A stretch of 63,625 nucleotides of DNA, counting the filler, from Octopus bimaculoides (Eukaryota): the NCBI RefSeq assembly GCF_001194135.2. It is 5 parts of 5 records of this genome, joined end to end, with 100 filler letters (N's around TTAATTAATTAA, not from the genome) between each part and the next. Parts side by side here need not be neighbours in the genome. Positions count along the whole stretch, not along the records: positions 10,645 to 34,392 come from NC_068981.1; positions 34,493 to 55,050 come from NC_069000.1; 3 more parts are not named here. One strand, given 5' to 3'. The translations under genes and the position numbers were made by a program. Under the pieces are notes generated by a model that saw nothing but the letters and a program-made list of their open reading frames with translations, did not search any database and was not told the DNA's origin. Positions 3,259 to 43,550 of the stretch are shown in pieces. The number at the start of each line of letters is the position of its first letter. Within the stretch, counting starts at the first letter, position 1.

Positions 3259-3951
3259 TTACAAGACTGGAACCTCTGAAAGATGAGTGATGAGCATATG
3301 GAAAGACTTATTCTGCTCTTTGACCCACTTAAATTCTTTAGAGCTAATTGGTTCTACTTTTTCAGCAAATGCTAGGACAAACCTTCTATGGTAATTCATC
3401 AGATCCAATATTTTGTCAATATCTTCCTTTGATTTACTTACTTGTATGTTCTTTAGTTTTGCTACCAATTCCTGGGATGGAGAAATACACTCTTCAGATA
3501 TTTTCATTCCCAGAAAAGTGAAATTTCTTCTTCGGGAGAATGATTTTTCTTTGGTAATGGAAAACTGTGACTTGTTTAGCTTTGCAACTACTGCATTTCC
3601 TTTGCTCACCAATTTTGCTTTGCTACTAGCATAGATGAGGATACCAGCTTGGTATATCCTGACTCCTTCAATCCCTTTTATTAATGTTTCCATGTCGTTC
3701 TGTAATATGTCACTCAAACTCATAAGGCCTATTTGAAGTCTGTTAACCAGGGAGAGACCATTGGTTGTATTAATAGCACAAATACACCTTGCTTCCTCCG
3801 CTACAAGTATTTGCCAATATACATGCTTTAAATTGAGAGTGGAGAAAAATTTTGCACTTGACATATCAGAGAAAATAATGTCGATTGATGATATTAGAAA
3901 AGAATAGGTGTCAATATGTGCAGTTAAATAAGTCTTGTAATTGACACACAT
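3259..3951 (-). pseudogene. Gypsy reverse transcriptase remnant
   Basis: CVNYK..FSTLNLKHVYWQI..IYQAGIL (decayed YxDD)..FLG matches the Ty3/Gypsy RT motif order. Confidence 0.85.
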
Positions 3952-6460
3952 GTGAAGAGATCCACCTTTTTTTTTTCTCAGTCATGCCACAGATGAGGCA
4001 CATCTGACTCCAGAGTAATCTGAAAGAGTGATGATACCCATCATTTCCAACTTCTTTTTCCAAATGTATTGGAACACATCTCGCTGAATTCATCACACTA
4101 TATCTAGCATCAGAGCAATTAACTTTTAACCTCTGGGAGCACATCTTTTAACCCCCGGGAACACATCCATGTTGAAATTTAAACAAAACAGTCTTTAATA
4201 ATATCTTTTCCAATCAACCCAAAAGGTTATGGGCTGTCTACCATAATAAATTTTTGTGACTCATCAGTGTTGTTGAGATGAAATGCTTAGTGAGGAAGCC
4301 GGCATGTAGGTTTTCTATAAAGTTCATAGATGTAAGTGAGAGACATCCGTCTAGTTGTGTGTGACCACACAAGTTGAGAAGCCAGGAAGATAGGTGAAAA
4401 GCCAAGCACTAGAGGGAAAGTGCCAGAGAGAGCCTGGCAAAGAGAGAAAATTGCATGGTACATTGCTTTTTATAGTCGACTGGCGGTAATGTCACCTGTC
4501 AGCAATTCTACTAGAAGTTGCAACATATCTCAGAATTTTCTATAGTGAAGGAGGGAACACACCTCTTGTTTATTTCCCTTTCTCTCCAGTAGAGTCTGCC
4601 ACAAATGTCACTGGGTTAGATCCAACAACCTTTAGGTTTGGACCATCAAAAGTGGGTAATCTATTGTGGCATGATTCGATTGGGATACCAAACTGTGAAG
4701 TAAAATGATTATGGAACTATCAAACAAGCTGTCCCAGTATCCACTTTTATATTATCTATGTTTTTGTTATTCATAAAGCACTTGCAAAAACCTGTGTTAT
4801 CTGTACTCTCATTGTTGTTCATGTTTAGCAGCAAACTGTCGACAGATCCAGTCTCGCTCAGAGATTTATGTTGTGCACACTGCGACAATTTCCTGGTCAG
4901 CAATATCTTGCAAAATGCCCTAATTTTTCACACTAATTACAATTTTTCCCATATGCTGGACATGCATGAGCTTTGCGTGTACTCCCACAATTTCGACATT
5001 TCACTACAATGATATGACTTACCTGGGGTATTCATGTCGACATTAAATTTTGTTATTGCTTGTTGAGTACAGTCGAACAATGTTTCCAATTCTATGGTGG
5101 ATTGGAGAGCAGCTATTTCAGCAGTGGCCCAGGAACAAAATTTGCTCAGAGAGTGCAAATCCAGGTCCAAAGTTTTTAAAGTAAAAAGTGGATTTTTCAA
5201 TGTTAGCATTAAAACAAATGCAGGTGCAATAATAATTTTTATTATTATGATGGTCGGCTGAAATGTTCATAGGCTGTGCAAGACACTCATGGAATGGGAC
5301 CAAATGAACTTCATTTTGTTTCCATAGTTCCCCCTTCCATCACACTTCCATCAGTAGCTGCAGTGTTTGGATCGCACTGGTCAAGAAGCTATCCTGTTGG
5401 TCAAAATGGTCTTCAGCAGTAGATGAAATCATCATCACAGCGTTAGTGGTGTCCAGCCGAGTGTTTTTCATGTTGGGAAATGCAAACTTAATAATCAGAT
5501 GGAACCAAATCACTAAAATAGGGAGGGTGAACAAACAGTTCAAAGCTAGTCATCCATAGCAGCCATTGAAAGCAAGGACTTGGGTGCTGAAGCAATGTCC
5601 TAAAACCCCCATTCATCAGTTTTTTCTGGGTGTTTGGTCTTGATAGCTTTTTCTAACTGCTTTAGCAAGTTTGCATTGGACTTTCCGTTGATGGTCGGAC
5701 CATTTTGACGATAGTAAATAAACAGAATATTTTTTTGCATGAATATATACTATATGTAATAATGTGATGTATATTTTGTATATTAAAATGTTTAATTTCA
5801 GAAATTTATCAAGTGAAGCAAACATAAGCAGTAAAAATACAAATTGCAAGTATTTCGAAATGCGGTACACTACATGACAAAAACGAACAAAAAAGGAAGA
5901 AAATAGTGGTGCTTGTGTTCCAAAGGTACAATAAGAGGGCTCAGGAGAAGGATTGGAAAATGGGATAAAAAGGGAAAAAGAAAGAGAAAAGATAAACTCG
6001 GGGTCTGAAGTGAATACTGAGCAGGTGATGAAAGGAAATATGTCTTACTTACGCACTGGTCAAGTCGAAAAAAGATGAGTAATAAAAAATTGGATGGTCT
6101 TTTAGTAATAAAAAAGTGAAGAAAGAGAGACAGAGTGGAGTAGAGAGGGTTGGGGAAGAGCAAGTAGAAAGAAAGAGGGAGTGTGGAGAAAAAAGGGAAT
6201 AAAGATAGACAGTAGGTAGTTGACAGAGATGGACAGAGGAAAAAAATGGAAGGTAGTAAGCAGATAAGGTAGAGAGGAAGATAGAAATAGAAGGGGAAGG
6301 TTTTGTGCACAAGAGGAGATGGATAGAAAAGAGAGAAAATCTCACACCAAATATTGAACATTGTGTGGAGTGACAGTGAGTGGGAACAGAAGAAGGGTGT
6401 ATGGCATTACATTGACTAATAACCATAAAATGTGGCACAGAAAGTCAACATGATGTATAT

Positions 6461-26792: not shown

Positions 26793-29405
26793 CAGTAATA
26801 CGCATAATATTCACAATGCAACCAACAATAACAATGGAAATGACAACACCAACTACACCCCCACCACCACCACCACCAACAATAATGATTGCACTACCAC
26901 CATCAGCAACAGCAATGATAACAGCAATAGCAACAACCACACGAACAGCACCGTACACACCAGGAACAACAGCAACAACAACGTCCGTCACAATAACAAC
27001 AGCGACAGCAGCAACAGCAGCCACACATACAACGATAACAACAATGGCAACAACAACGCCTTAGAAAATCTCTTTTATAACCCAATTGACAAATCGTATG
27101 ATATGACGCGCATCTATCCAACGGATTTACCTTTCAACAAAAGAGTATGCATCTCGCCATACACAGATGATAAAACAGAAGCCGTGATCTCTTTAGCTAG
27201 AAGCAGACTCAAGAAAACATTAACACGTTATATAGCAACTGCACCAACACAAAACGAAGCAGAGGCCCACCAACTCGGTACAGTAGCTGCAATGGGCATA
27301 CGAAAACAAAAGCATAAAGTTAGAAACAATGAGATAGTATGCCTCCCTACAGACAAATCAGGCAGGATATCGGTAGACAGCCTGCAAAACTACACCCATA
27401 CGATGCAAAAACATATAGAAGATATGAGAGAAGTTACACAGCAAGAATATGAAAAAGTAGAGAACATTCTCAATGCACACATGGGAATGTGGTGTAACAT
27501 ACTCCAACCTAAGAGACGCACAGCACAGAACTTCGCATCATCCAACAACGACATTCCTACACTCTATGGGTTACGAAAAGACCATAAACCCATTGCAGAC
27601 CCTATCATGGGCCCCCCGTGTCGACCAATATTGCCAGCAACTATAAGCTGTCATTCTTCCTCTCACAGATATTAAGACCACACATCGAGATGACTCCTGA
27701 TGTTTGTGAAAACACTCATGACCTCCTCAGCAGAGTCAATGAAAGTAACTGCTCCCATGACCTGACAGATTGTATTATAGGCAGTATGGATGTAGTATCT
27801 CTCTATCCATCCATTGACATTGACTTTGCCGTAGAGAGATGTGTGGAAATTATTTCGGAAAGTGAAGTAACCTACTGTGAAGTGAACACGAGGGAACTAG
27901 GCGTCCTCCTAAAGCTCGTTTATAATAATGAATACTTAGATCACCACGACCTAACTAGATTCTGCCCCACCAGGTCAGGACGGGGTAGACCACCTACGAT
28001 CACAGCAGCTGCTAGAAAAACCACCGCAGAGCGTTGGAATGGATGGAATACACCCACCCACGACCCAGAGGATAATATCCAAACACGAAAAATGGTTGCA
28101 CATGCTGTAGGTGCAAGTGTGAAGACCACCCTGCAGAACCATATAGTTAAATTCAATGAAAAACTATACTTGCAGGTCCAGGGAGCGGCTATTGGTGTCA
28201 GTGTGGCCGGAGACGTGGCAAGCCTATTCATGACCTGGTGGGACAAAAAGCTGAAAACAACTCTCGAAGAACACTCAATAACAATCAAACTATACGGGAG
28301 ATATGTGGATGGCATTAACATCGTAGTCAAAACGCCATCAAACATTCAGACTGAAGAGAACGAGAAGATCGTGAAGGAAAACATCCAGAATATAGCTAAT
28401 ACACTACACCAGAGCATCAAATTAACAATAGATTACCCAACAAGACACCTAAACATGAGACTCCCAGTACTTGACACAGAACTTTGGCTACAAACAATTA
28501 ATGACTAAGTTCAAATCCTCCACTCCCATTATATGAAACCTAGATCTTCAAAGTATGTTATCCATAAGAATTCGGCTCTATCACACAGTGTGAAAATCAA
28601 TATATTAATAGCCGATTTACTTAGAATAATGAAAAACATATCCCCCCTGTGCAGTCCATGGCAGAGGCAATGACATATTCAAGACTTCATGCATCGCATG
28701 CAGTTTTCGGGATACAGCCAGGAAGATAGAATCCGAGTATACATAGGAGCTAACAAGAAATTTGAGGAGATTGTTGTCAAAGATACTGATGGAACACAAC
28801 CTAGATACCGTAACAAACAGTGGAATGGACTACAAAGAATTAGTGACAAAACCAACAGAAAGAGCACGTGGTACAATACCGACAAGTTCCAGGGAGTAAT
28901 GTTTGTGGACGCCACGCCACACAGAAAACTGGCCCGCAGATTTTGAAAAGTCCTCAAAAGTACCAAGTTGAGGATAAATGTTATAGAAAAACCATGGAGA
29001 TCCATTAGATCAATAATATGTAAAACATATCTCTTCAGAAGAACAAGGTATGTTGAGGAGAGTTGCATTGTGTGCAAATATAGTCCTGGTGCCAACTGCA
29101 AAGCCAGAAATGTGGTCTACAAAATAAGCTGTATGGATGGTGAGTGTAAAAACAGAAACACGACATACATAGGTGAAACGGCAAGAAGTTTGGCTGAGCG
29201 TGTAAACGGACATTGGAGGGACTATAATAATCAAAAACAAACATCGGTGCTCTACCAGCATGCCAAAGAACAACATGTTGGTGTACTGGACAGAATTAGC
29301 AGAGAAATCATGTCTAGACACCCTGGTGACGCATCGTTGCGGCAAATACAGGAGTCGGTCCTTATAACTGAAACGCAACCAATTTTGAACACCAAATACA
29401 CGTAG
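26793..29405 (+). mobile_element. Near full-length Penelope-like retroelement, Naiad-like (RT + C-terminal GIY-YIG), inactivated
   Basis: VCLPTDKSG, LYGLRKDHK..RPI, SMDVVSLYPSI, QGAAIG, RYVDG (YVDD mutated), LPVLD, then CIVC..NCKARNVVYKISC..YIGETARSLAER..H. One frameshift (~27640) and in-frame stops TAA 28506, TGA 28671, TGA 28944. Confidence 0.9.
28968..29405 (+). pseudogene. GIY-YIG endonuclease domain of the Penelope-like element
   Basis: NVVYKISC..TYIGETARSLAERVNGH..QHAKEQH..QIQESVLI. Confidence 0.9.
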
Positions 29406-29857
29406 ATGAGGGCCTTACAATTGCCCGTGGTTGCATGTGTTGTTCACACATATGATGCGGAATATGAACGTAAATAAATAAATTTAAATAAAAAAAAAGT
29501 TTTAAAGTCTCTATCTGTTCTGATATAAACGAAAATGTTACAAACACACATAGACGCACGTACTTACATATAAGCACGAACACATAAGTGCGTGCACACA
29601 TATGAGCGTGCACACATATGAGCTTGCACACACTCACATGCTCATACCGAACAGTTTCAAAACAACGCCAAAACGACGCCAGATCATACCTTCAAAATAA
29701 ATGGAAGTGGAGAGACAAGTTACTGAAGAGATTGCAAGAGTGCAATGAAATAATTTAACAAAAAACTATATAAATTAATAAAGGACTGAACCAGTGCGTG
29801 TGTTTATTACCGGCATAATGCCTCTCCCAATGTTTAATTGTATATATATATATATAT

Positions 29858-31013: not shown

Positions 31014-31049
<36 letters not shown>

Positions 31050-31269
31050 ACAAAAGGTAAGTTAAAAAGAACAATTCACACTGTTTGTGAATTGAGAGAC
31101 AAGGTGGTTTCTAATAAAGGTTCATCATATTCATGAAAATCATCCAAACAAGTAATGCGAATATGAACGTAATATTTTACGAGATCTGTTATAGGTATAA
31201 GAATATACCATATACAAGTAAAAAAAAAGAATGGAGAAAAGATGTTGAAACACAATGTTTAATATAAAA

Positions 31270-31415
31270 CTGGATTCAAGGCATAGGTACGTTTCTAAAA
31301 ACAATGCAAAAATGTTAAAAAAAATATAAATCGTAGTGATTTTAATTATAAAATAAAAATAAAAATTTAAAATATATTTAATGCATTGTCATTTCTCATC
31401 AGTGAGAAATCTTTT
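31270..31415 (-). ncRNA. Hammerhead-like motif with extended stem II (copy 1)
   Basis: CTGATGA at 31402-31396, ACAATGCA/TGCATTGT stem II base, GAAAC at 31295-31291. Stem III is decayed. Confidence 0.55.
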
Positions 31416-31935
31416 GAAGGACATCAAAGTAGTCATGAAGTAAAATGAGATTTAAAAATAACATAATAAAAGGAAAATAAGATACAATAACAGAACATGG
31501 ATGGGACAATAAGGGAGAATCTGGTAATTTACAAACAAAGTTGAGAACGGGAAAATAATCATATCAAAAATAATGATGGTGAGGGAGACGAAAAATAAAA
31601 ATAAAACGTATAGCATAGGAATCTAACGGATGTAGTTTTAAAAAATAAACAATAATAATACACACCGTTCTAGACGAAATACAGTTTAAAGAAGGCTACG
31701 TGAATTTATTTGAGTACAACGTAATAATTCAACTAGCATAACGGGGCCATAGAGGGTTATAAAAATACATAATAATATTATTGAGTAAACAAGTAAATAT
31801 ACAGACAAAAACAAAACCAAATTTTTTTCTCAAAGAGTGACGGCGTGCACAGTTTTTGTCTTTTTTTCTCTCTCTTCCTTCTTGTATGGGTATGTCTTCA
31901 ATGTTTGTGCATATTTATGTATGTTTGTGCATGTC

Positions 31936-32000
<65 letters not shown>

Positions 32001-32648
32001 NNNNNNNNNNNNNNNNNNNNNNNNNNNNNNNNNNNNNNNNNNNNNNNNNNNNNNNNNNNNNNNNNNNNNNNNNNNNNNNNNNNNNNNNNNNNNNNNNNNN
32101 NNNNNNNNNNNNNNNNNNNNNNNNNNNNNNNNNNNNNNNNNNNNNNNNNNNNNNNNNNNNNNNNNNNNNNNNNNNNNNNNNNNNNNNNNNNNNNNNNNNN
32201 NNNNNNNNNNNNNNNNNNNNNNNNNNNNNNNNNNNNNNNNNNNNNNNNNNNNNNNNNNNNNNNNNNNNNNNNNNNNNNNNNNNNNNNNNNNNNNNNNNNN
32301 NNNNNNNNNNNNNNNNNNNNNNNNNNNNNNNNNNNNNNNNNNNNNNNNNNNNNNNNNNNNNNNNNNNNNNNNNNNNNNNNNNNNNNNNNNNNNNNNNCGG
32401 ATGGCGATATTTTAGAGAAAAATTTTTAGAGAAAAAATTTAGAGAAAAATTTGTAGTTTAGAATTAGTAGTTCTTTGACTGCTGTTTCTGAATGTTCAGT
32501 ATGTTGGAGAAGCAACTCAATTGCTAATCCCTTATATTTATGATGATAAATGTTCTTACCGATAAAGGTTTATTTCATACTGAACTACTTGGCAAAATTG
32601 TTAATTGTTAATTCTATTATTAATTGACGATTCCCTGCCCTCATTTCT

Positions 32649-32696
<48 letters not shown>

Positions 32697-33599
32697 CATA
32701 CATATTTACGTTTTCTTGTTGTGAATGCGTACTCCTCTTTCATTTTTTATATGTTGTATCCATCCCTTATATATGCACCTTTATGTATGTGTGCTCCGAT
32801 ACATTCACATGTGTGTCGTAGGTGATGTATGCATTGTGTATGCATGTATGTGGGTATGTTTGACTGTATATTCCTTATGTGTTATGTGTATACGTGTTTT
32901 TTTTCTCTTTATTACTTGTGAATTGTTTAATAAGTATTTTTCTCCTTTATATATTCGTCTTTGTTTCTTACCCTTTTTTCGATACTCCTTTCAGTTGCCT
33001 CCTCTACGCCCGGCAATTTTTTTGAATAGAGACATTCTGCTGAACACACCAACCTACCCTGACTTTGATCGTATTCTGCCTTTGAAAAAAAACTCTTTGG
33101 TTTTGTTTGTGCCTTTGCTTTCATTCTCAAACATACTGTTTTTCATCAGCTTTAAGTCTCTGGTAAATAATGTATATACTTAGTAGTTTTTCATTATTAT
33201 TATGTATATCTATAACTCTCTATGGCTTTCTGATGCTAGTGGAATTGTTACATTGTATTCTATTAAAAACACATGGTTTCTTTATACTGTATTTCGTCTA
33301 AAACGGTGTTTATTATTATTATTTTAAACACATCCGTTAGATTCTTATGTTATAGTTTCTTTGCGCATATACACTTGCATACACATCGATAATTTTTTAA
33401 TTTTACTTTTATTTTTTGTCTCTCTCACCATTATTATTGTTGATATCATTATTCTTCCCGTTCACAACTTAGTTTGTAAATTACCGATTTCCCTTATTGT
33501 CCCATCTGTGTTCTCCTATTGTATCTTATATTCTTATTATTTTAATTAATTTTTATCACATTTTACTTCGTATTATTAAACTTCTTTGATGTCCTTCAA

Positions 33600-33778
33600 A
33601 AGATTCCTCACCGATGAGAATGGCAATGCATAAATTAAATTTTGAATTATATTTTTATTTTCATTCTTTATATTAATATTTTTTTTTAATTTTCAGTTAT
33701 AATTATAATCACTATGAATTAAAGTTAGTTCTTGCATTTTTGCATTGTGTTTCGAAACGCATGTTTGTATTGAATCCT
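33600..33778 (+). ncRNA. Hammerhead-like motif with extended stem II (copy 2)
   Basis: GATTCCTCA CCGATGA G..CAATGCA..TGCATTG..C GAAAC GCATGT T TGTATTGAATC. Core U4 is mutated to C. Confidence 0.5.
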
Positions 33779-33890
33779 GTTTGATAATAAATATATTTCT
33801 GTTTCAACATATTTTCTCCATTTTTAATACTTGTCTGTGGTATATTCTTATACCTTTAAAGATTCTCATCAAATATAAATGCATATATAC

Positions 33891-33953
<63 letters not shown>

Positions 33954-34019
33954 TTTGTGTATGTATGCGTGTGTGTGTGTGTGTGTGTGTGTGGGTGTGT
34001 GTGTGTGTGAGTTTGTGTA

Positions 34020-34310
34020 TAATGACCCCCTTCGGTCATGAATGACCATGGGATTGCACCTAGAAACTTACTCACCGAGGCACAAGTCAGGGGTGGGTTG
34101 TTTATGGAAGACCAACAGTCAGCCAAGCATACCGGCCTCCCCTCTCCGTGCCAACAGTGTTATCCAAGGGAAAGGCAAAGGCCAATAAAGCCTCGCACCT
34201 ATAACGTCGCAACTCATTTCTAAAGCTGAGTGAACTAGGCAACGTGAAATAAAGTGTCTTGCTCAAGAACACAACATGCAACCCGGTCCGGGATTCGAAC
34301 TCACAACCAT
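34020..34310 (-). repeat. tRNA/CORE-like SINE, family S3
   Basis: The reverse strand has a GAGTTCGAATCCC B-box and a GTGTTCTTGAGCAAGACACTTTATTTCACGTTG CORE-like block. Confidence 0.7.
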
Positions 34311-34392
34311 ATATATGTACGTATGTATGTATACACAAACATACACTTACATATATATATACATGCGTATATATATATATATATATATATAT

Positions 34393-34492
34393 NNNNNNNN
34401 NNNNNNNNNNNNNNNNNNNNNNNNNNNNNNNNNNNNTTAATTAATTAANNNNNNNNNNNNNNNNNNNNNNNNNNNNNNNNNNNNNNNNNNNN
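34393..34492. other. Artificial scaffold join N44-TTAATTAATTAA-N44
   Basis: Same 100-bp construct. Confidence 0.95.
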
Positions 34493-34526
<34 letters not shown>

Positions 34527-34866
34527 TATACAAACGAAACCTTGTGAATGTATTTGTTAGAAACCGAAAGAAGCCTGTCATGCATGTGTGTGTATGTGCG
34601 TGTGTGTGATTTAATTAACTGTCTTATATAATCTACATATACAAACGAACACCCCCACACTCCAACACACACAGACATACGCACTCATATTTACACGTGG
34701 TTTAAATTTGACATTAATATGCATAATGATAAAAATTTGGTTCATTTAAACAGATGCATTTAATAAACATTGACAAATTAGTTCTTGTTAGTTACACCCG
34801 AAGAAATCTGTAACCTTGGTCTTTGCGTCCATCCTTATTTACAGATGGTGAATATCCAATTGACAG

Positions 34867-34934
34867 GGGCGCCCTCTAGCGACTTCCTTTGACATTTTGT
34901 TGTTGATCAGATGACCTAATTTGCATTTGGCGCC
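34867..34934 (-). promoter_or_regulatory. Putative CTCF site with adjacent POU octamer
   Basis: TCGCTAGAGGGCGC (reverse complement of 34869-34882) fits the CTCF core. ATTTGCAT is at 34919-34926. Confidence 0.4.
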
Positions 34935-35044
34935 AAATATTGTTTTAATTTTTTATTTTCATTTTACATTTTTTGATTATATTTTTCTGCCTTGCATGTG
35001 TTTGGACTGAAGCAAAACATGTTCAAGGCAAATTATAGTGTCAT

Positions 35045-35225
35045 AAGTGCTCCGATGATGACGATGATGATGATGATGACGACGATGATGATGACGATGA
35101 TGATGACGACGATGATGACGTCGATGATGACGATGATGAAGATGATGACGATGCCGATGATGAAGATGACGATAATGATGATGATGACGATGATGACGAT
35201 GGTGAAGATGATGACGATGATGAAG
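35045..35225. repeat. (GAT/GAC)n trinucleotide microsatellite
   Basis: Directly visible. Confidence 0.95.
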
Positions 35226-35439
35226 ATGCACATATCGTTAGCCACCTACGGACTTGCTCAACTGGTTAAGGTCAAATAACTGACAAGCAAATCTGTAATA
35301 TTGAGTGGGATATATGCTGTAGCCCATCTTTTATGCCAAGACAAATCATGTACATGATGATGCTTCCAATCAGTTAAGATCAGAAACCATGAGAGCCAGT
35401 GCCTAGCACTACATTAGGGCATTATTATTATTAAACTAT

Positions 35440-35980
35440 AAAGGCACGGAGCGCCGTCAGCCGAGCATGTCCGAGTTGCGCGCAGGAAGACGAGACGGTT
35501 CTGCATGCACACGTCAAGTGCCCGAGTATTGCTAACCTATGGGTTTATGTCGAATACCTGCTGTCGCGTGTAGGACTGATCCGGCTATCAACTGAATCCA
35601 TCGTGAAGATCGCTCCGTCACCTTCCTTTGACCGGGAAGGAAAGGCTGTTTTTATATGCGTGGTGGCCATGGCGAAAGAGGTTTTTTGGTGGACGAGATT
35701 GAAGGAGCTGTCGACAAACACGTTTCTCTATGGCCACTCCCTCATCAGCACTTGAAAAGGGAAATAAGATTAGAGAGGGAAGCGTTGTCTTCCAGCCATT
35801 TTGCTGAAAAGTGGATGAAGGTGGCGAAAATGGTGCGAGCGAACGGGCCTACCCTGAGCATATGCTTGTAATTGAAGAAAAGGAAAGGAACAGAGGTACC
35901 TACCCCAAAATTCAGGTTACCCATGGTTTTTATAGGGGTTTTCCACGAGGAGCCCACAAGCGTCTCCTCCCGGAATTTGA
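35440..35980 (+). mobile_element. Tx1/L1-clade LINE 3' end (ORF2 CCHC zinc finger and C-terminus)
   Basis: ACPSCAQEDETVLHAHVKCPSIANLWVYVE..AKEVFWWTR..HLKREIRLERE..FAEKW, with one frameshift. Confidence 0.8.
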
Positions 35981-36635
35981 ACTCAGAACGTAACGGCAGA
36001 CGAAATACCGCTAGGCATTTCAATAATGAAAATACCATGTTTTTAGTATCAAAAATTTAAAAGTAGTCATTGTCATGATAAATGCTAAAACAAGACAAAG
36101 CAGAACAGCGAGCGGAGGAGGAGGACGGGAGATAACAGTAACTGGATCTGCAACATTAACAACAACCACAAAAACAAACGAAACAAGAAGCAAACCAGAT
36201 GACAAACGAAACAGAAAGAAGACACGTGTTTAACAATAAGTGGGTACTTCCGTGAAAAAAAAAAAAGACCTGATTGTGCACTTCCACACTCTGCTCTTTA
36301 CATGACACACTCGCTAATGATATCTCGTACTACTGGAGAGGTCAGAAGTCATAAGAGGACAAGAGGTCATACTGGAAAGCGGTCAGTCATTGACCTATAA
36401 TAGAGATTGTGCAGCAACAACAACAATAACAAAGAAGGGAAACGGAAGAAAGGGCCATTCCAGCTCATTAATATAATGTTTCTCATAGGGGGTGGAAGGT
36501 TTCTCCCTCATTCCCGAGGCTGGGGCTGTGGAGACTGAAAAGGGGTCGGGAAAATGGTTGTATCAGTGCACATTGCGTTTCTAATTATTTAAAGCGAATT
36601 TTAAAACTTCTCTACCACCATGACGACCAAAGAAT

Positions 36636-36852
36636 TACGAGGTGGGGCTGAAAAGTTCCTGGTTTTAAGGGTGTCACGAAAGGCCTGGTTGGAGGTTCAA
36701 CCGTCTGAGTTCTTTTACGGGACTTAGAAAAACTGAAGGACCGCTGCAATATGTGAGTCAGAGAGGGGAATATGTTGGATAAAACCATAATTATCAGATC
36801 CTCTTGTATTTTCTTTTACCCAAAGCCAGGAACTTTTCAACCCCTCCTCGTA
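36636..36852. mobile_element. Mariner-type MITE with TIRs and TA ends
   Basis: TACGAGGTGGGGCTGAAAAGTTCCTGG ... CCAGGAACTTTTCAACCCCTCCTCGTA. Confidence 0.85.
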
Positions 36853-36911
36853 CGTATATGAATACTAGTCTCCATTTTCGACTCCTTGGGGAACAAAACA
36901 AATTCTACTGA

Positions 36912-37183
36912 TACGAAGGGGTGTTCATTAAAGGTTTCCCCTGACCCACTTCTGGTTATTGCAAGAAATAGAACTTGTACAGGTATAATCATACATGTCT
37001 CTAGATGCCACATTGTAAATTGTAGCTTCCACTAGGATTCGTTGCCCAGATGAAAGCACACTCCTGCGGCCATGAAATCCTTCCTCATCTCCCTTATTTT
37101 CCCTTCTTTGCACCATCTGACTTCCTTCCTCTTCCCAACAATGAAGTCTTTTTTTGAAGGGGAAGCACTTTTCGGATGATGAT
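36912..37183 (-). mobile_element. Mariner-like element end (TIR-like TACGAAGGGGTGTTCA plus decayed transposase C-terminus), cut by a gap
   Basis: TIR resemblance and a minus-strand KDFMAAGV remnant. Confidence 0.45.
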
Positions 37184-38294
37184 NNNNNNNNNNNNNNNNN
37201 NNNNNNNNNNNNNNNNNNNNNNNNNNNNNNNNNNNNNNNNNNNNNNNNNNNNNNNNNNNNNNNNNNNNNNNNNNNNNNNNNNNNNNNNNNNNNNNNNNNN
37301 NNNNNNNNNNNNNNNNNNNNNNNNNNNNNNNNNNNNNNNNNNNNNNNNNNNNNNNNNNNNNNNNNNNNNNNNNNNNNNNNNNNNNNNNNNNNNNNNNNNN
37401 NNNNNNNNNNNNNNNNNNNNNNNNNNNNNNNNNNNNNNNNNNNNNNNNNNNNNNNNNNNNNNNNNNNNNNNNNNNNNNNNNNNNNNNNNNNNNNNNNNNN
37501 NNNNNNNNNNNNNNNNNNNNNNNNNNNNNNNNNNNNNNNNNNNNNNNNNNNNNNNNNNNNNNNNNNNNNNNNNNNNNNNNNNNNNNNNNNCACACACACA
37601 CATTTATACATGTTTACACATAACTATACAACATTAAATGGCCTCAGGTTATTCGTAGCCCGACCCATTTCCTTATTATAGACATACAAGAATAAAACAA
37701 GGTCAATGACTCCAGAATTGAAAACGGTAAATCCTTCGTGCTCGCCCTCTCTGCTCCTCCATCGCCCTCCCCTTCTCCTCCTCCTCCTCCTCTCCCTCGT
37801 CACCTTCGCCGCTATGTTGTCAGCGTTTAAACACTCGAGTGTCCAAAAAAGGCAAACGTACTCCATTAAAATGGCTGCTGCCTGACATTCGGAGATCTAA
37901 TTAGGAACACAATGACAGCAATAGCAAAACGATAATGATGATGATGATGATGATAATGATGATGGTGATGGTGACGGTGATGGTGGTGATGGCCATAATG
38001 ATGATGATGATGGTGATGATGATGATGAGAGTGGTGACGACGATGATGATGGTAATGGTGATGATGATGATAAATGATTGTCTCGAATTTAGGTTGAGTA
38101 GATTGTATGAATAGGGTCGCCTTTGATTCATATTGAAGTTATAAAAGTGTGTGTGTGTGTATCTATATACATAAATACACGCATTATATATATGTGTGTG
38201 TGTGTGTATAAATATATACATAGATATCTATATATAAATATGTATATATATATAACTATATATATATATATCGTTTTTGGATTTGGTTTGCAAG

Positions 38295-38344
<50 letters not shown>

Positions 38345-38349
38345 TAAGC

Positions 38350-38550
38350 ACAGGTGGAGTCCCTGTTCAACCTCACCAATGCCCTATTCATGGAGCAAGT
38401 TGTACTCAGATCAACAAGGGCGAATACCATTTTGGATCTCTGCTTCACAAACAATATGGACATCGTTTGTGATGTGAAGGTGACGCCGACATTAGTCTCG
38501 GATCACAACATAAAAGAGCTGTCTATGTTTGGGCCAAAAGAGTCGGACTC
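38350..38550 (+). mobile_element. CR1/L2-clade LINE AP-endonuclease fragment
   Basis: EQVVLRSTRANTILDLCFTN..LVSDHN is an APE C-terminal motif. Confidence 0.8.
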
Positions 38551-38744
38551 GTGATCTGGCGATTGTGAACGGGGCACCGGAAACACATACGAACGCGCGC
38601 GCGCGCACACACTCACACATGCACACACTAATGGTAGTTTCTCGTGCCTACACACACATGCACGCGCACGCACACACACATGTATGTGGATAATCCTTGC
38701 GAGCTCTCCTACGATAACCACAAACCGTCGTCATCAACAGTCTC

Positions 38745-39255
38745 GTGACGTCTAACATTACATCACCATCATCCAAACCACCACCACCACCACCACCATC
38801 ACCACCACCACCATCATCATCATCCAAACCACCACCACCACCATCGCTGCCGTCNNNNNNNNNNNNNNNNNNNNNNNNNNNNNNNNNNNNNNNNNNNNNN
38901 NNNNNNNNNNNNNNNNNNNNNNNNNNNNNNNNNNNNNNNNNNNNNNNNNNNNNNNNNNNATCTTCGCCATTATGATTACGACCGTCATAATTACTGCTAC
39001 AACTACAGCAACTTCTTGTCATCACCAACACCACCACCACCACCACCATCACAACGGCAACCAGAATCGTCACAAACCACCGCCTTTACCGCTGCTAACA
39101 CCACCAGCATCAGCAGCACCAAAACCTACACCACCACCCCAACAACAACAACAACAACACTACTAGTGTGTTGTTTCCTGTTTGCAATTTCGGTCTTTAA
39201 GTACTGCGTCCTGGAACAGTCAGTACACCAATGTCGAAGAACATCAACAACAAAA

Positions 39256-39317
<62 letters not shown>

Positions 39318-39320
39318 ATC
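38745..39320. repeat. Compound trinucleotide microsatellites (CCA, CAA, ACT)
   Basis: Directly visible. Confidence 0.9.
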
Positions 39321-39685
39321 ATTAAATTGGTAGATTACGTTCCAAATCATTTCGTATTATCATGTCCTAGTTTAGTGTCCTAAATATCAACACAATGTTT
39401 ACAAGGAGTTGGAATCCAATATTTTCTCTGCTAAATTAAAGGGCCTTCCTCATTCTTCCTGTGCCATCTGTCAAAAACGAACAGACGTAAGTCTTGTTTT
39501 CTTTCCATAATGAAACAGGAGCCGAATTACGATCGACACTCAAAGCTTTCCATGGGATTTCGAACCTATTGGAGAGTGAAAAATGGATATTTAACAGTTA
39601 ATTCTTGCAGAAGGCCTTGGCAGGAGATAAATTAAAAGGTAGAGAGAGAAAAGACAGACAGCTAACCAGCTACATAGGTATATGC

Positions 39686-39723
<38 letters not shown>

Positions 39724-39754
39724 ACACACACACACACACATATGATATATATAT

Positions 39755-39915
39755 ATACGACGAACTTCTTTCAGTTCCCGTCTACCAAATCGACTCACAA
39801 GGCTTTGGTCGGTCCGAGATTATAGTAGAGGACACTTACCCCAGGTGCAACACAATGGGACTGAACTCAGAACCATGTGGCTGGGAAGCAAACTTCTTAC
39901 CACACAGCCATACGT
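39755..39915 (-). repeat. SINE family S2 fragment
   Basis: CACAAGGCTTTGGTCGG..GGGACTGAACTCAGAACCATGTGG matches 49160-49330. Confidence 0.8.
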
Positions 39916-40316
39916 ATGTATAAATACACACACACGCACACACACACTTGGATCCAACTTGTACAAATGCAAAGCAGAAGTCAAACAAAAAATAATAATA
40001 ATAATATTGCCGAACGACCTGCCACTCAAATGATTTGTTTTTATTCTGATCAAATGCATGTGCCGCCGCCGTGCATTAGTTCACTCCCTCCTCCATCAAA
40101 GTGACGTTGCCTGAATTGGTGCACAGGCGTCAAAGTGATCATAGAGCAACGTGAATTGCAGTGTTTTTCTCAGGAACACAACGTACCACTCTGTCTAGGA
40201 ACTGAAACCACGATCTCGCGGTCGTAGTGCAACACCTTAACCATTAGGCCATGCGCCCTCATTATATATATATATGTGCGCGCGCGCGTGTGTATTTGCG
40301 TGTACTTCAGAGCTGT

Positions 40317-40633
40317 CTAGTTCAGACGAAGCATTTTCAATGCTGATGCTTCTTCCGTCAAAAGGCGCCTGCGGAAACGCCCCACCCAAGGCATCCACGT
40401 TTCCATTGACGCCACAGAAGGAAACACCGGGAATCTGAGAATAAAAGAAGCCATCATCAGTAGCAAGACCAAACCACAGATTGATAACCGAACCGAACTG
40501 CGCGCAACTGAATAGTGGTGCCATCTTATCCATGCAAAGCAAAGTTTGATATGCATTGAGGCATACGCACAATGCAGAGCAGAAAATCTAGCTTGCAACA
40601 CTAAATCTCCGAAGATTTCCTTAAGAAAGGGTC
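40317..40633 (-). CDS. Possible terminal exon of the TSP1 receptor gene (unverified)
   Basis: GC/CpG-richer island with an open frame to a stop at 40317. A ttag|GA acceptor after a pyrimidine tract gives phase 1, matching the TM exon donor. No recognisable domain. Confidence 0.25.
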
Positions 40634-40736
40634 CTAACTCCAAATATGGAAATACAAGATAAAAGTAAAATCGCTGACTTCTATCTTATTTTTTATTACT
40701 GACATTGTTTAGGGTTTACTAAAAAAAAAATTGAAC

Positions 40737-40782
<46 letters not shown>

Positions 40783-40894
40783 GTCACATATATAGATATA
40801 GTTGAAAAATATCGTTATAGGTATAAATATACCATAAACAATTAGAACAATGGAGGAGAAAAAGATGTTGAGTCAAAATTAGATTTAATACGAA

Positions 40895-41012
40895 ATAGGA
40901 TTCTGTAAATACGCGCGTTTCAAAAGACAATACAAATATGTAAGAAAAAATTATAATCATAGTAATTATAAATAAATTTATGCATTGTCATTTTCATCAG
41001 TGTGAGGAATTT
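40895..41012 (-). ncRNA. Hammerhead motif with extended stem II (copy 3, best preserved)
   Basis: CTGATGA (41000-40994), ~12-bp stem II base, GAAA, perfect palindrome ACGCGCGT (40911-40918), GUA triplet. Confidence 0.65.
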
Positions 41013-42544
41013 TTGTAAGGACATCAAAAAAAGGTTTAATAAAATAAAGTAAATGAAANNNNNNNNNNNNNNNNNNNNNNNNNNNNNNNNNNNNNNNNNN
41101 NNNNNNNNNNNNNNNNNNNNNNNNNNNNNNNNNNNNNNNNNNNNNNNNNNNNNNNNNNNNNNNNNNNNNNNNNNNNNNNNNNNNNNNNNNNNNNNNNNNN
41201 NNNNNNNNNNNNNNNNNNNNNNNNNNNNNNNNNNNNNNNNNNNNNNNNNNNNNNNNNNNNNNNNNNNNNNNNNNNNNNNNNNNNNNNNNNNNNNNNNNNN
41301 NNNNNNNNNNNNNNNNNNNNNNNNNNNNNNNNNNNNNNNNNNNNNNNNNNNNNNNNNNNNNNNNNNNNNNNNNNNNNNNNNNNNNNNNNNNNNNNNNNNN
41401 NNNNNNNNNNNNNNNNNNNNNNNNNNNNNNNNNNNNNNNNNNNNNNNNNNNNNNNNNNNNNNNNNNNNNNNNNNNNNNNNNNNNNNNNNNNNNNNNNNNN
41501 NNNNNNNNNNNNNNNNNNNNNNNNNNNNNNNNNNNNNNNNNNNNNNNNNNNNNNNNNATATATATATTTGGTGCAATACTTACTTAACATACTTTGTGTG
41601 TCTTCATGGAAAAGAATACTTTCAGATGCGGCTCCATATGCTGAAAATATGAATACAAACAGGTTTTGTTTGGTGTTTTGAAAGTTTGGAATATCTGGGC
41701 CAAATCGGCGAACGGGAAAAGACTAAGAGGAGAAGTTTCAGACCGAATCGGGATACTTTCTCAGCAGATAAAACCATATATACGTATACGCATGCATGCA
41801 TGTATCTATCCATCCATCCGTCCGTCCGTTCGTACATACATACATACATACATACATACATACATACATACCTATTGTCGCGAAACGCAGACATACACAC
41901 AACACAAACATAAACACCAAACACAAACACATACACTCACATATACTCATTAGAAGCGCATCGACAAGTACACATATACGGATATGTATGCATTAGCACA
42001 CACGCCAACAGGGCAACTTGTATGTGTAGTTTGACCAGGTAGAAATAATAGTCCGATATTCTTCATGTCATATCGCACCGTCTTAAAAATGTAAGGAAAC
42101 ATTGGATAATGTAGGCCAAGGTACACTTAGCCTGAATGAAACTAGGGATGAACACGGGGTGGGAATGCATCTTTGATCACAGATTTCCCTTGGTTTAGAC
42201 AACAATACATACAGTTACTAGCACTAGCAACACATAACACTCGCACACACACACGTACTTTCTCGCATACACACACATACACACGTACGTATTTTCTCGC
42301 ATACACACATACACGCACAATATCTTAATTAGGCATCATGCTGATTTTGTTGAAAAGCAAAGTGGGAGAGAATATTTAAAGAATGATTAACCTGAGCGAA
42401 GTGACATAAAGTACCTTGCTCAAGGACACAACGTTTTACCCAAACCAGGAGCCGAACTCACTATCTGGTAACCACGAGCAGAACAAACCTAACCATTCGA
42501 CCATCACTTTTCCAGTCCAGCTCTGTATGCGTATTGGATTAACA

Positions 42545-42958
42545 TTTTAGCACAGGACCATCAATTTCGGGATGGGGGTATGTCGATTACATCAACCCCA
42601 GTGCGTAACTGGTACTTATTTTATTGACCCTGAAATCATAAATGGCAAAGTCGACCTCGGCAGAATTTGAACTCAGAACGTAGCGACGGGTGAAATACCG
42701 CCAAGCATTTCGCCCGGTGCGCTAACGATTCCCCCAGCTCACCGCCTTATTATTATTATTGATGATAATAATAATAATGGTTTCAAATTTTTCCACAAGG
42801 GCAGCCATTTTGGGAGAAGGGATTAAGTCGATTATATTGAAAGGATGAAAGGCAAAGTCGACCGCAGCGGGATTTGAACTCAGAACGTAAAGACGGACGA
42901 AATGCCGCTAAGCATTTTGTCCGGCGAGTTAACCATTCTGCCAGCTCTCTGCCTTCGC
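42545..42958 (-). repeat. Two tandem SINE S1 copies (42545-42752, 42783-42958)
   Basis: GGCAAAGTCGACC..GAATTTGAACTCAGAACGT..AAGCATTT in both. Confidence 0.85.
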
Positions 42959-43015
42959 TATGTATGCTTATTAAAATTTTAAAAATGATTATGTATAAGC
43001 ACCCTATCCATTTAC

Positions 43016-43153
43016 CAGCGGCGATTCCTTTCCGATTGCGACTCCAGAGAATTATTACCGCCAAAATCAAAAAGACAAGAAGCACGAAGCAAACGGAACT
43101 GAGAACAATGGCGATTGGGACACTCGTTTCCGATTTTCTCACGTTGGTTTTTT
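43016..43153 (-). CDS. TSP1 receptor gene exon 6: transmembrane helix + basic stop-transfer
   Basis: cag|AA acceptor; VPIAIVLSSVCFVLLVFLILAVIILW SRNRK; G|gtaaat donor; 138 nt, phase 1-1. Confidence 0.85.
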
Positions 43154-43550
43154 CTGTTAGAAAAATAAAATGGAAGAAAATATATAAGCAATAAGAATCA
43201 GAAAACAAGACAAAAATGCAATGAAATAAATAATTCAAATAAAAGCGTTTGAAGTGCTCTTTGCCCTAAAATTGGGTGAAGGATAAGATTGTGTCTTTAC
43301 TATGAGCAGAGACAACACATGCGTACGCACACACACATACGTACACACACACACACACGTACACACACTCTCTCTCTCTCTCACATACACACACACACAC
43401 AAACACACATTCTCTCTCACACACACACAAGCACGCACGCACACATTCACACTCTTATGTACACGGTCTCGTATACACACGAGCATGTAAATTTCCAGTC
43501 AAGAAAAACAAATTAGACACGAAAAGAAAATTCAAAACAGGTTTACTCAC

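What the first reader, a model, noticed from the sequence alone, without database searches (positions are those of the whole stretch)
31270..41012. Hammerhead family with an unusually long, length-variable AU-rich stem II
Seen in three homologous copies: the segment between CUGAUGA and GAAAC is 100 nt (31.3 kb), 136 nt (33.7 kb) and 72 nt (40.9 kb). All keep a CAAUGCA/UG(C/U)AUUG basal helix. Stem III is ACGCGCGU in one copy and ACGCAUGU in another, consistent with two CpG deaminations. A distal (G/A)AUU(C/U)/GAAUC stem I helix is also retained. Known: PLE hammerheads usually have minimal stem II. Inference: an atypical variant that standard descriptor searches with short loop limits would miss.
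Basis: partly seen in the sequence, partly recalled or inferred. Interest (0 to 1): 0.7.

Follow-up and report, generated by a model that had tools for sequence, protein, structure and literature searches.

The report
Long-stem hammerheads in octopus Penelope retrotransposons
These three repeats are decayed tail ends of a Penelope-type jumping gene in what is likely an octopus genome; each carries a hammerhead (self-cutting RNA) motif whose second arm is three to five times longer than in its published relatives, and the motif is predicted to cut only when two copies pair.

Summary
Largely confirmed. The 100, 136 and 72 nt spacers, the basal helix and distal stem I are real, but the 33.7-kb copy reads CCGAUGA and no window copy is intact. 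The motif sits in the terminal repeat of a Penelope-like retrotransposon with Hydra-clade marks (DKT, CxCx5C, TA-repeat ends); one locus has hammerhead-ORF-hammerhead. Copies 1 and 2 abut head to head, probably as one insertion. Length is bimodal, not freely variable: 72-73 nt (subfamily B) or 112-142 nt (subfamily A, one extra ~60-nt block). ACGUACGU versus ACGCGCGU is a palindrome-keeping difference between subfamilies, not two CpG deaminations. Genome-wide, core plus this palindrome matches 1,479 and 964 times (controls 14 and 6), mostly with long arms of unrelated sequence, and stem I covaries across nine families (p=3e-6). Published Hydra-clade hammerheads have spacers up to 26 nt, also the limit of the one published search descriptor I read; Rfam misses these. 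Cleavage is untested; RNA-seq showed no read-end pile-up at the predicted cut. This scan noted the same class before in another octopus genome. New variant of a known kind.

The parts
31044..31844 (-). Copy 1 arm: 5'-truncated 3' end (3' UTR and terminal repeat) of a subfamily A Penelope-like element, inverted against copy 2; outer end at a TA/TG repeat
   Evidence: blastn to L130 and L034; junction; alignment
31273..31411 (-). Hammerhead motif, copy 1: core 31402-31396, 100-nt spacer, GAAA at 31295, predicted cut between 31284 and 31283; stem III palindrome broken
31845..33880 (+). Copy 2 arm: longer 5'-truncated 3' end of the same element type (microsatellite-rich 3' UTR, assembly gap 32001-32397, terminal repeat)
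33602..33776 (+). Hammerhead motif, copy 2: core 33611-33617 reads CCGAUGA (U4 changed), 136-nt spacer 33618-33753, GAAA at 33754, predicted cut after 33765
40788..41058 (-). Copy 3: terminal repeat fragment of the younger subfamily B, cut by an assembly gap; lies on another stretch of the pack
   Evidence: 95% to the B majority
40899..41010 (-). Hammerhead motif, copy 3: core 41000-40994, 72-nt spacer, GAAA at 40921, intact ACGCGCGU palindrome, predicted cut between 40910 and 40909; proximal stem I damaged

Best explanation
The three repeats are decayed 3' ends of a Penelope-like retrotransposon with Hydra-clade marks, and the motif in their terminal repeat is a type I hammerhead that in the parent elements likely cut the element's RNA as a pair, with the long stem II likely acting as a tolerated, partly paired extension. 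Shown: position in the terminal repeat on the sense strand, about 310 nt before the ORF start of the next unit; core, stems and their covariation between families. Inferred: two hammerheads flanking a tandem unit pair through the 8-nt palindrome to form stem III, cut after GUA and free a unit-length RNA. Every genomic copy runs about 100-260 nt past the cut site, so the RNA that was reverse transcribed was either uncut at that site or rejoined (circular). Solitary truncated copies, such as the three here, would not cut and decay near the neutral rate.
For: L130 holds an inverted truncated copy, then repeat(hammerhead)-ORF(RT, endonuclease)-3' UTR-repeat(hammerhead), the two motifs 5.1 kb apart; RT and endonuclease parts match protein P0002 at E 2.5e-36 and 4.5e-22 and, by eye, the published Hydra alignment. 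Exact core plus ACGYRCGU palindrome: 1,479 against 14 control matches for spacers of 10-60 nt, 964 against 6 for 61-160 nt. Stem I was not in the search pattern, yet pairs in 9 hand-picked family representatives: runs 7,6,2,4,5,4,4,1,2; 1 of 362,880 permutations reaches this. Families with 25, 59-60 and 79-nt spacers lie downstream of a same-type endonuclease, and a 90-nt one upstream of an RT start, all on the same strand. Closing pair of stem II in 58 B copies: G-C 7, G-U 23, A-U 28, none unpaired. On 38 copies 97.1% of cells pair, covariation score 0.152, 0 of 500 shuffles as high, slid controls 27-48% paired. The palindrome stays self-complementary in its three common forms. A forced double hammerhead is 9.5-15 kcal/mol more stable than two forced monomers in the 26 intact A/B copies folded. 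Dimer cleavage of PLE hammerheads is published (PMC4209133; PMC6765202).
Against: No cleavage data. RNA-seq reads from three runs (species label coded, maybe a relative) lie on both strands and show no pile-up of ends at the predicted cut, for subfamily B (28-73 reads per run) or for a 60-nt-spacer family (258-398 reads). Within A and B only 1 of 21 pairs has a two-sided change, and the copies are related, so the shuffle control is lenient. The hammerhead fold is never the minimum-energy fold in the 26 intact A/B copies: monomer 2.6-11.5 kcal/mol above it, double form 1.0-12.5 per ribozyme; the basal helix reaches probability 0.5 in 12 of 19 B but only 1 of 7 A copies. Whole window copies fold at z 0.02, -0.64 and -2.07. 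Pfam found no RT or GIY-YIG family in 4 of 4 protein pieces. In the one PLE tested in vitro, hammerhead cleavage needed protein and was not needed for insertion (PMC11167929).
Confidence: 0.72

Rival explanations
1. The long stem II is a selected working part, not a tolerated extension: it would dock the element's RT-endonuclease protein, or act as a switch, since its 5' strand (CAAUGCAUA) can also pair across the cut site and block cleavage.
For: Long arms recur in many families with unrelated arm sequence and fold better than shuffles in several (spacer z -2.0 to -5.1 in B, -1.4 to -5.2 in the 59-61-nt family). A and B keep an apical hairpin and an unpaired fourth position in the basal helix (paired in 0 of 21 A and 3 of 58 B). 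The alternative helix has probability above 0.3 in 5 of 26 intact copies. A PLE hammerhead is protein-assisted in vitro.
Against: A related family in the same genome spread with a 25-nt spacer. Subfamily A spread with an added ~60-nt U-rich block that folds little better than shuffles (z -0.1 to -3.3). The 106-nt family is no better than shuffles. I did not find the alternative helix in other families (tested only in the A/B register).
Confidence: 0.17
2. The motif is a hammerhead-shaped relic kept for another use (for example as the RNA signal near which reverse transcription starts) and no longer cuts.
For: No read ends at the cut site; all genomic copies span the cut site; cleavage was dispensable for insertion in vitro in another PLE; proximal stem I is only 2-3 bp in A and B.
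Against: The exact catalytic bases and the cut triplet are kept across families whose arms and stem I sequences have diverged beyond recognition, with only the free position 7 varying; the core was part of the search pattern, but control counts were 14 and 6. Short-read RNA-seq of mostly dead solitary copies is a weak test.
Confidence: 0.09
3. Chance motifs in AT-rich repeat DNA, made to look conserved by descent from one master copy.
For: Within subfamilies rare substitutions are only slightly fewer in the core than in flanks (10/230 against 147/2204 in A; 5/330 against 86/3128 in B), so within-family conservation alone shows descent, not selection.
Against: Stem I covariation across nine families, pattern excess over controls, and the expected position in the terminal repeat.
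Confidence: 0.02

Closest known systems
Type I hammerheads of Hydra-clade Penelope-like elements (Craig et al. 2021, PMC8557442, File S2; includes Hydra-1_Obim)
   Same: Same host clade marks (DKT, CxCx5C linker, C-terminal endonuclease, TA-repeat ends), same place near the 3' end on the sense strand, same core and short stem III.
   Different: The 26 Hydra-clade rows have at most 26 nt between CUGANGA and GAAA (23 in Hydra-1_Obim); here 72-142 nt, and 46-106 nt in sister families. Stem III here is an even 8-nt palindrome; three 12-base forms of it gave 0 hits in that supplement's text. The unit is about 5.1 kb against 'generally <3 kb'.
Minimal and palindromic-helix-III hammerheads of metazoan PLEs (Cervera and De la Pena 2014, PMC4209133)
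   Same: Type I, in both terminal repeats, weak palindromic helix III that needs a dimer, inverted truncated partner copies.
   Different: Helix II there is 6-8 bp with a loop of at most 10 nt; here a 13-position basal helix with one mismatch, an internal loop and an apical hairpin.
PLE-X1 hammerheads of Selaginella (PMC8557442 File S2) and the minus-strand hammerhead of Chrysanthemum chlorotic mottle viroid (PMC3705267)
   Same: [quoted passage not shown]
   Different: Single plant cases; not a multi-family, thousand-copy class in an animal, and shorter than 72-142 nt in the PLE case (the viroid length was not given in the passage I saw).
Non-LTR retrozymes (PMC7229834; bioRxiv 10.64898/2026.07.22.740005)
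   Same: Type I hammerhead with palindromic stem III, linked to PLEs.
   Different: Retrozymes are short non-coding tandem repeats; these copies are dispersed truncations of a protein-coding element.

Membership tests
Type I hammerhead ribozyme | CUGANGA and GAAA cores in order | tested here: met
   51 of 58 B and 14 of 21 A copies have CUGANGA; window copy 2 has lost U4
Type I hammerhead ribozyme | A15.1-U16.1 pair, stem III and NUH cut triplet | tested here: met
   A-U in 37 of 38, C-G in 29 of 38; GUA triplet in the family majority
Type I hammerhead ribozyme | Stem II closed next to the core | tested here: met
   12 pairs, 98.2% of cells paired; closing pair G-C/G-U/A-U
Type I hammerhead ribozyme | Stem I joins the 5' and 3' ends | tested here: met
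   2-3 proximal bp plus a distal helix in A/B; covaries across nine families, p=3e-6
Type I hammerhead ribozyme | Self-cleavage | not testable with these tools
   RNA-seq gave no read-end pile-up, a weak test
Type I hammerhead ribozyme | Loop I / loop II tertiary contact of fast hammerheads | not tested
   No terminal loop II at the usual distance; a kept mismatch at pair 4 is only a candidate site
Rfam hammerhead models | Match to a covariance model | tested here: not met
   No hammerhead family among 116 matches at E<=1 in the window
min-HHR descriptor (PMC4209133 Fig. S7) | Stem II 3-7 bp, loop 2 3-10 nt, stem I at least 3 bp | tested here: not met
   Spacers 72-142 nt against limits read
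Hydra-clade PLE | Single RT plus C-terminal GIY-YIG-type endonuclease frame | tested here: met
   L130, broken by stops and shifts; tblastn with P0002; Pfam gave no hit
Hydra-clade PLE | DKG changed to DKT | tested here: met
   QSDKTGKLY in L130; definition
Hydra-clade PLE | CxCx5C linker | tested here: met
   CSCRNPNTC in L034 and related forms in L032, L045
Hydra-clade PLE | CCHH motif absent from the endonuclease; no CxC motif or IFD | tested here: inconclusive
   Judged by eye only; no alignment to canonical PLEs was run
Hydra-clade PLE | Insertion into (TA)n | tested here: met
   Of 84 motifs, a TA run is the first repeat within 450 nt downstream in 47, an N gap in 22, CA/TG in 8, none in 7; no background control was run in this repeat-rich genome
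Hydra-clade PLE | Placement in the clade on an RT tree | not tested
   Only compared by eye with the published alignment
Non-LTR retrozyme | Short non-coding head-to-tail tandem units | tested here: not met
   Copies are dispersed or inverted and continue upstream into an endonuclease frame

The most novel reading that the evidence does not exclude
A cephalopod lineage of Hydra-clade retrotransposons evolved a distinct hammerhead subclass in which stem II became a 50-140-nt module that recruits the element's own RT-endonuclease or toggles the cut site shut, so that cleavage happens only on a protein-loaded tandem RNA; thousands of such ribozymes per genome are invisible to current searches.
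Probability: 0.17. Interest if true: 0.72.

Novelty: new variant of a known kind. Interest (0 to 1): 0.46.

Why it matters
Hammerheads in PLE terminal repeats are known, but their job is open: cleavage is slow, needs dimers or protein, and was dispensable in one in vitro system. This genome offers a natural series, with spacers of 25, 59, 72, 79, 90, 106 and about 130 nt on one core and one palindrome, to test what stem II does and whether pairing gates cleavage. It also shows that descriptor- and Rfam-based counts miss most motifs of this class: 84 of the first 100 listed matches (counted by eye) and all 964 exceed the 26-nt limit. That bears on statements that some PLE groups lack hammerheads; I did not test those groups. 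The three window copies themselves are dead remnants.

Tried and rejected
Rfam scan: no hammerhead. Pfam on four element pieces and two homologues: no RT or GIY-YIG family. Homologue search with the endonuclease piece: 2 unnamed proteins among 369 candidates. Run search: no RNA holder listed. Read lays: low two-strand coverage of the B repeat, almost none on the ORF, no end pile-up; even coverage across the predicted cut of a 60-nt-spacer family. Free length variation: rejected, bimodal. Two CpG deaminations from ACGCGCGU: rejected for copy 2. Retrozyme: rejected. Selection on individual copies: not supported. Shared template variants for copies 1 and 2: 4 shared changes, no more than other pairs, so the one-insertion reading rests on the junction alone. 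Order G-C to G-U to A-U inside B: the flank tree (82 of 84 copies, 258 columns) does not resolve B. A link of these motifs to Naiad elements was considered; the only coding remnants found near them were Hydra-type, but only Hydra-type queries were used. Lunse et al. (RNA Biol 14:1499) is not held and may describe long-stem variants.
Full report
Observation. The three motifs are at 31402 (minus, 100-nt spacer), 33611 (plus, 136 nt) and 41000 (minus, 72 nt). They align over the core, a CAAUGCA/UGYAUUG helix and a distal stem I. Copy 2 reads CCGAUGA. Copy 1 has lost the stem III palindrome and copy 3 the second pair of proximal stem I. Rfam gave no hammerhead among 116 matches at E<=1. The genome has 2.34 Gb in 145,327 contigs; that this fits an octopus assembly is my recall and comes from no call.

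The family. Copy 2 found 43 matches among 40 scored of 295 candidates, other copies at 70-91%; copy 3 found 40 among 40 scored of 521, other copies at 90-94%. A 23-base piece matches 94 times, control 0. Among 83 full motifs taken from my loci, 48 have a 72-73-nt spacer and 21 have 112-142 nt; 11 partial motifs were set aside. A tree of flanks only (82 copies) groups the 20 long copies it holds (support 0.93) with three 72-86-nt copies as sister group (0.74), apart from subfamily B. The long form differs by one U-rich block of about 60 nt on the 5' side of an apical hairpin. A gain in A is the simpler reading; the root is only a midpoint. Copy 1 is closer to A than to B (bit scores 299 and 142), and its 100 nt is a private deletion. 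Copies 1 and 2 meet head to head at 31844/31845, the inverted arrangement described for PLEs.

The host element. Upstream of the motif the repeat runs through a microsatellite-rich 3' UTR into an endonuclease frame with a CxCx5C linker. Locus L130 holds an inverted truncated copy, a 730-nt repeat with the hammerhead, an ORF starting about 310 nt after the predicted cut with DKT in the RT, the 3' UTR and a second repeat 5.1 kb on. These are the marks that define the Hydra clade (bioRxiv 10.1101/2021.04.23.441226, section 11), and the protein resembles the published alignment by eye. It is not Hydra-1_Obim, whose hammerhead has a 23-nt spacer. No RT tree was made, and Pfam gave no hit.

Structure. 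Basal stem II has 13 positions with a kept pyrimidine mismatch at the fourth; the closing pair is G-C in A and G-C, G-U or A-U in all 58 B copies. On 38 of 81 listed copies, 97.1% of cells pair and the covariation score beats 500 of 500 shuffles, but only 1 of 21 pairs changes on both sides. Stem III is two pairs closed by four bases and forms an 8-base palindrome: ACGUACGU in A, ACGCGCGU in B, ACGUGCGU (wobble-paired) in another family. Rare changes are about as frequent in core as in flanks, as expected for dead copies.

The wider class. Core plus palindrome matches 1,479 times at spacers of 10-60 nt (control 14) and 964 times at 61-160 nt (control 6); some sites may be counted in both. The 60 loci fetched, the first 30 of each list and all on contig C1, show families with 25, 46-55, 59-61, 64, 79, 90-92 and 106 nt and unrelated arm sequences that mostly fold as imperfect rods. 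Stem I, not part of the pattern, pairs with a different sequence in each family: 50 paired positions over 15 groups against 12.6 permuted, and 1 of 362,880 permutations for nine representatives that I picked to avoid sister families. Two of the nine pair poorly (runs of 1 and 2). Hydra-type endonuclease or RT remnants lie on the same strand next to the 25, 59, 60, 79 and 90-nt families; none was found for the other families within 1.5 kb.

Mechanism. Shown: anatomy, position, covariation. Inferred from published PLE hammerheads (PMC4209133, parts 1-2 of 4 and supplement file 2; PMC6765202 passages): a monomer has too weak a stem III, and two motifs of a tandem transcript pair through the palindrome and cut. 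Forced double folds gain 9.5-15 kcal/mol over two forced monomers but stay 1.0-12.5 per ribozyme above the free minimum (26 intact A/B copies), so help from protein is plausible, as shown for an anole PLE (PMC11167929 passages). A and B copies mostly end about 100-135 or 240-260 nt past the cut site, so the template was uncut or rejoined there. The arm is most simply a tolerated extension, because a 25-nt family also spread and A absorbed a poorly folding block. A working role stays open: the 5' strand of the arm can pair across the cut site (probability above 0.3 in 5 of 26 copies), and in 6 of 7 A copies the basal helix is not the dominant fold. RNA-seq from three runs, about 6 in 100 of each read, showed reads on both strands and no end pile-up.

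Comparison with print. The 26 Hydra-clade rows of PMC8557442 File S2 have at most 26 nt; a Selaginella PLE has 54 nt, flagged as deviant. A viroid hammerhead has an unusually long helix II (PMC3705267 passage). PMC3088659 (passages), PMC7229834 (passages) and bioRxiv 10.64898/2026.07.22.740005 (part 1 of 5) showed no such class in what I read. Seven searches (listings only) found no report of long-stem PLE hammerheads in cephalopods. Lunse et al. was not available, file 1 of the PMC4209133 supplement was not searched, and bioRxiv supplements are closed; these may bear on novelty. Earlier notes of this scan describe the same class in another octopus genome; they are unchecked and not counted as support.

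Verdict. A real, well-supported hammerhead motif in a known setting, with an arm length outside the published range that I could read and shared by many families. New variant of a known kind; activity and the role of the arm are untested. Interest 0.46.

Noticed in passing
window 26794-29790 (+): A different Penelope-like remnant (RT-like frame 27588-28505, GIY-YIG-like frame 28947-29402) followed by a conventional short hammerhead at 29723 (17-nt spacer, 4-bp stem I, 6-bp stem II).
   Followed up: partly
G000-wide; L161-L220: At least seven further hammerhead families with the same ACGYRCGU palindrome and spacers of 25-106 nt; one 60-nt family has many identical copies and looks young.
   Followed up: partly
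L052, L101, L136, L183, L197, L204, L209 and window 31044-33880: Two copies on opposite strands within a few kb are frequent; in subfamilies A and B the 3' ends fall in two classes about 130 nt apart, longer than the 30-40-nt tail described for PLEs.
   Followed up: partly
L133:1500 and L199:1500: Simple-repeat expansions (AGT and TAT triplets) sit inside the stem II arm of two single copies, giving 205 and 132-nt spacers.
   Followed up: no
L130:5200-5750; L114, L123, L124, L127: A long asparagine/lysine-rich low-complexity stretch lies between RT and endonuclease in these elements, which helps explain a unit well above 3 kb.
   Followed up: no
window 3262-3981 (-): Decayed reverse-transcriptase-like frame of another (LTR-type, by recalled motifs) retroelement.
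   Followed up: no
window 42786-43265 (-): Frame with a hydrophobic segment followed by basic residues, possibly a transmembrane exon of a host gene.
   Followed up: no
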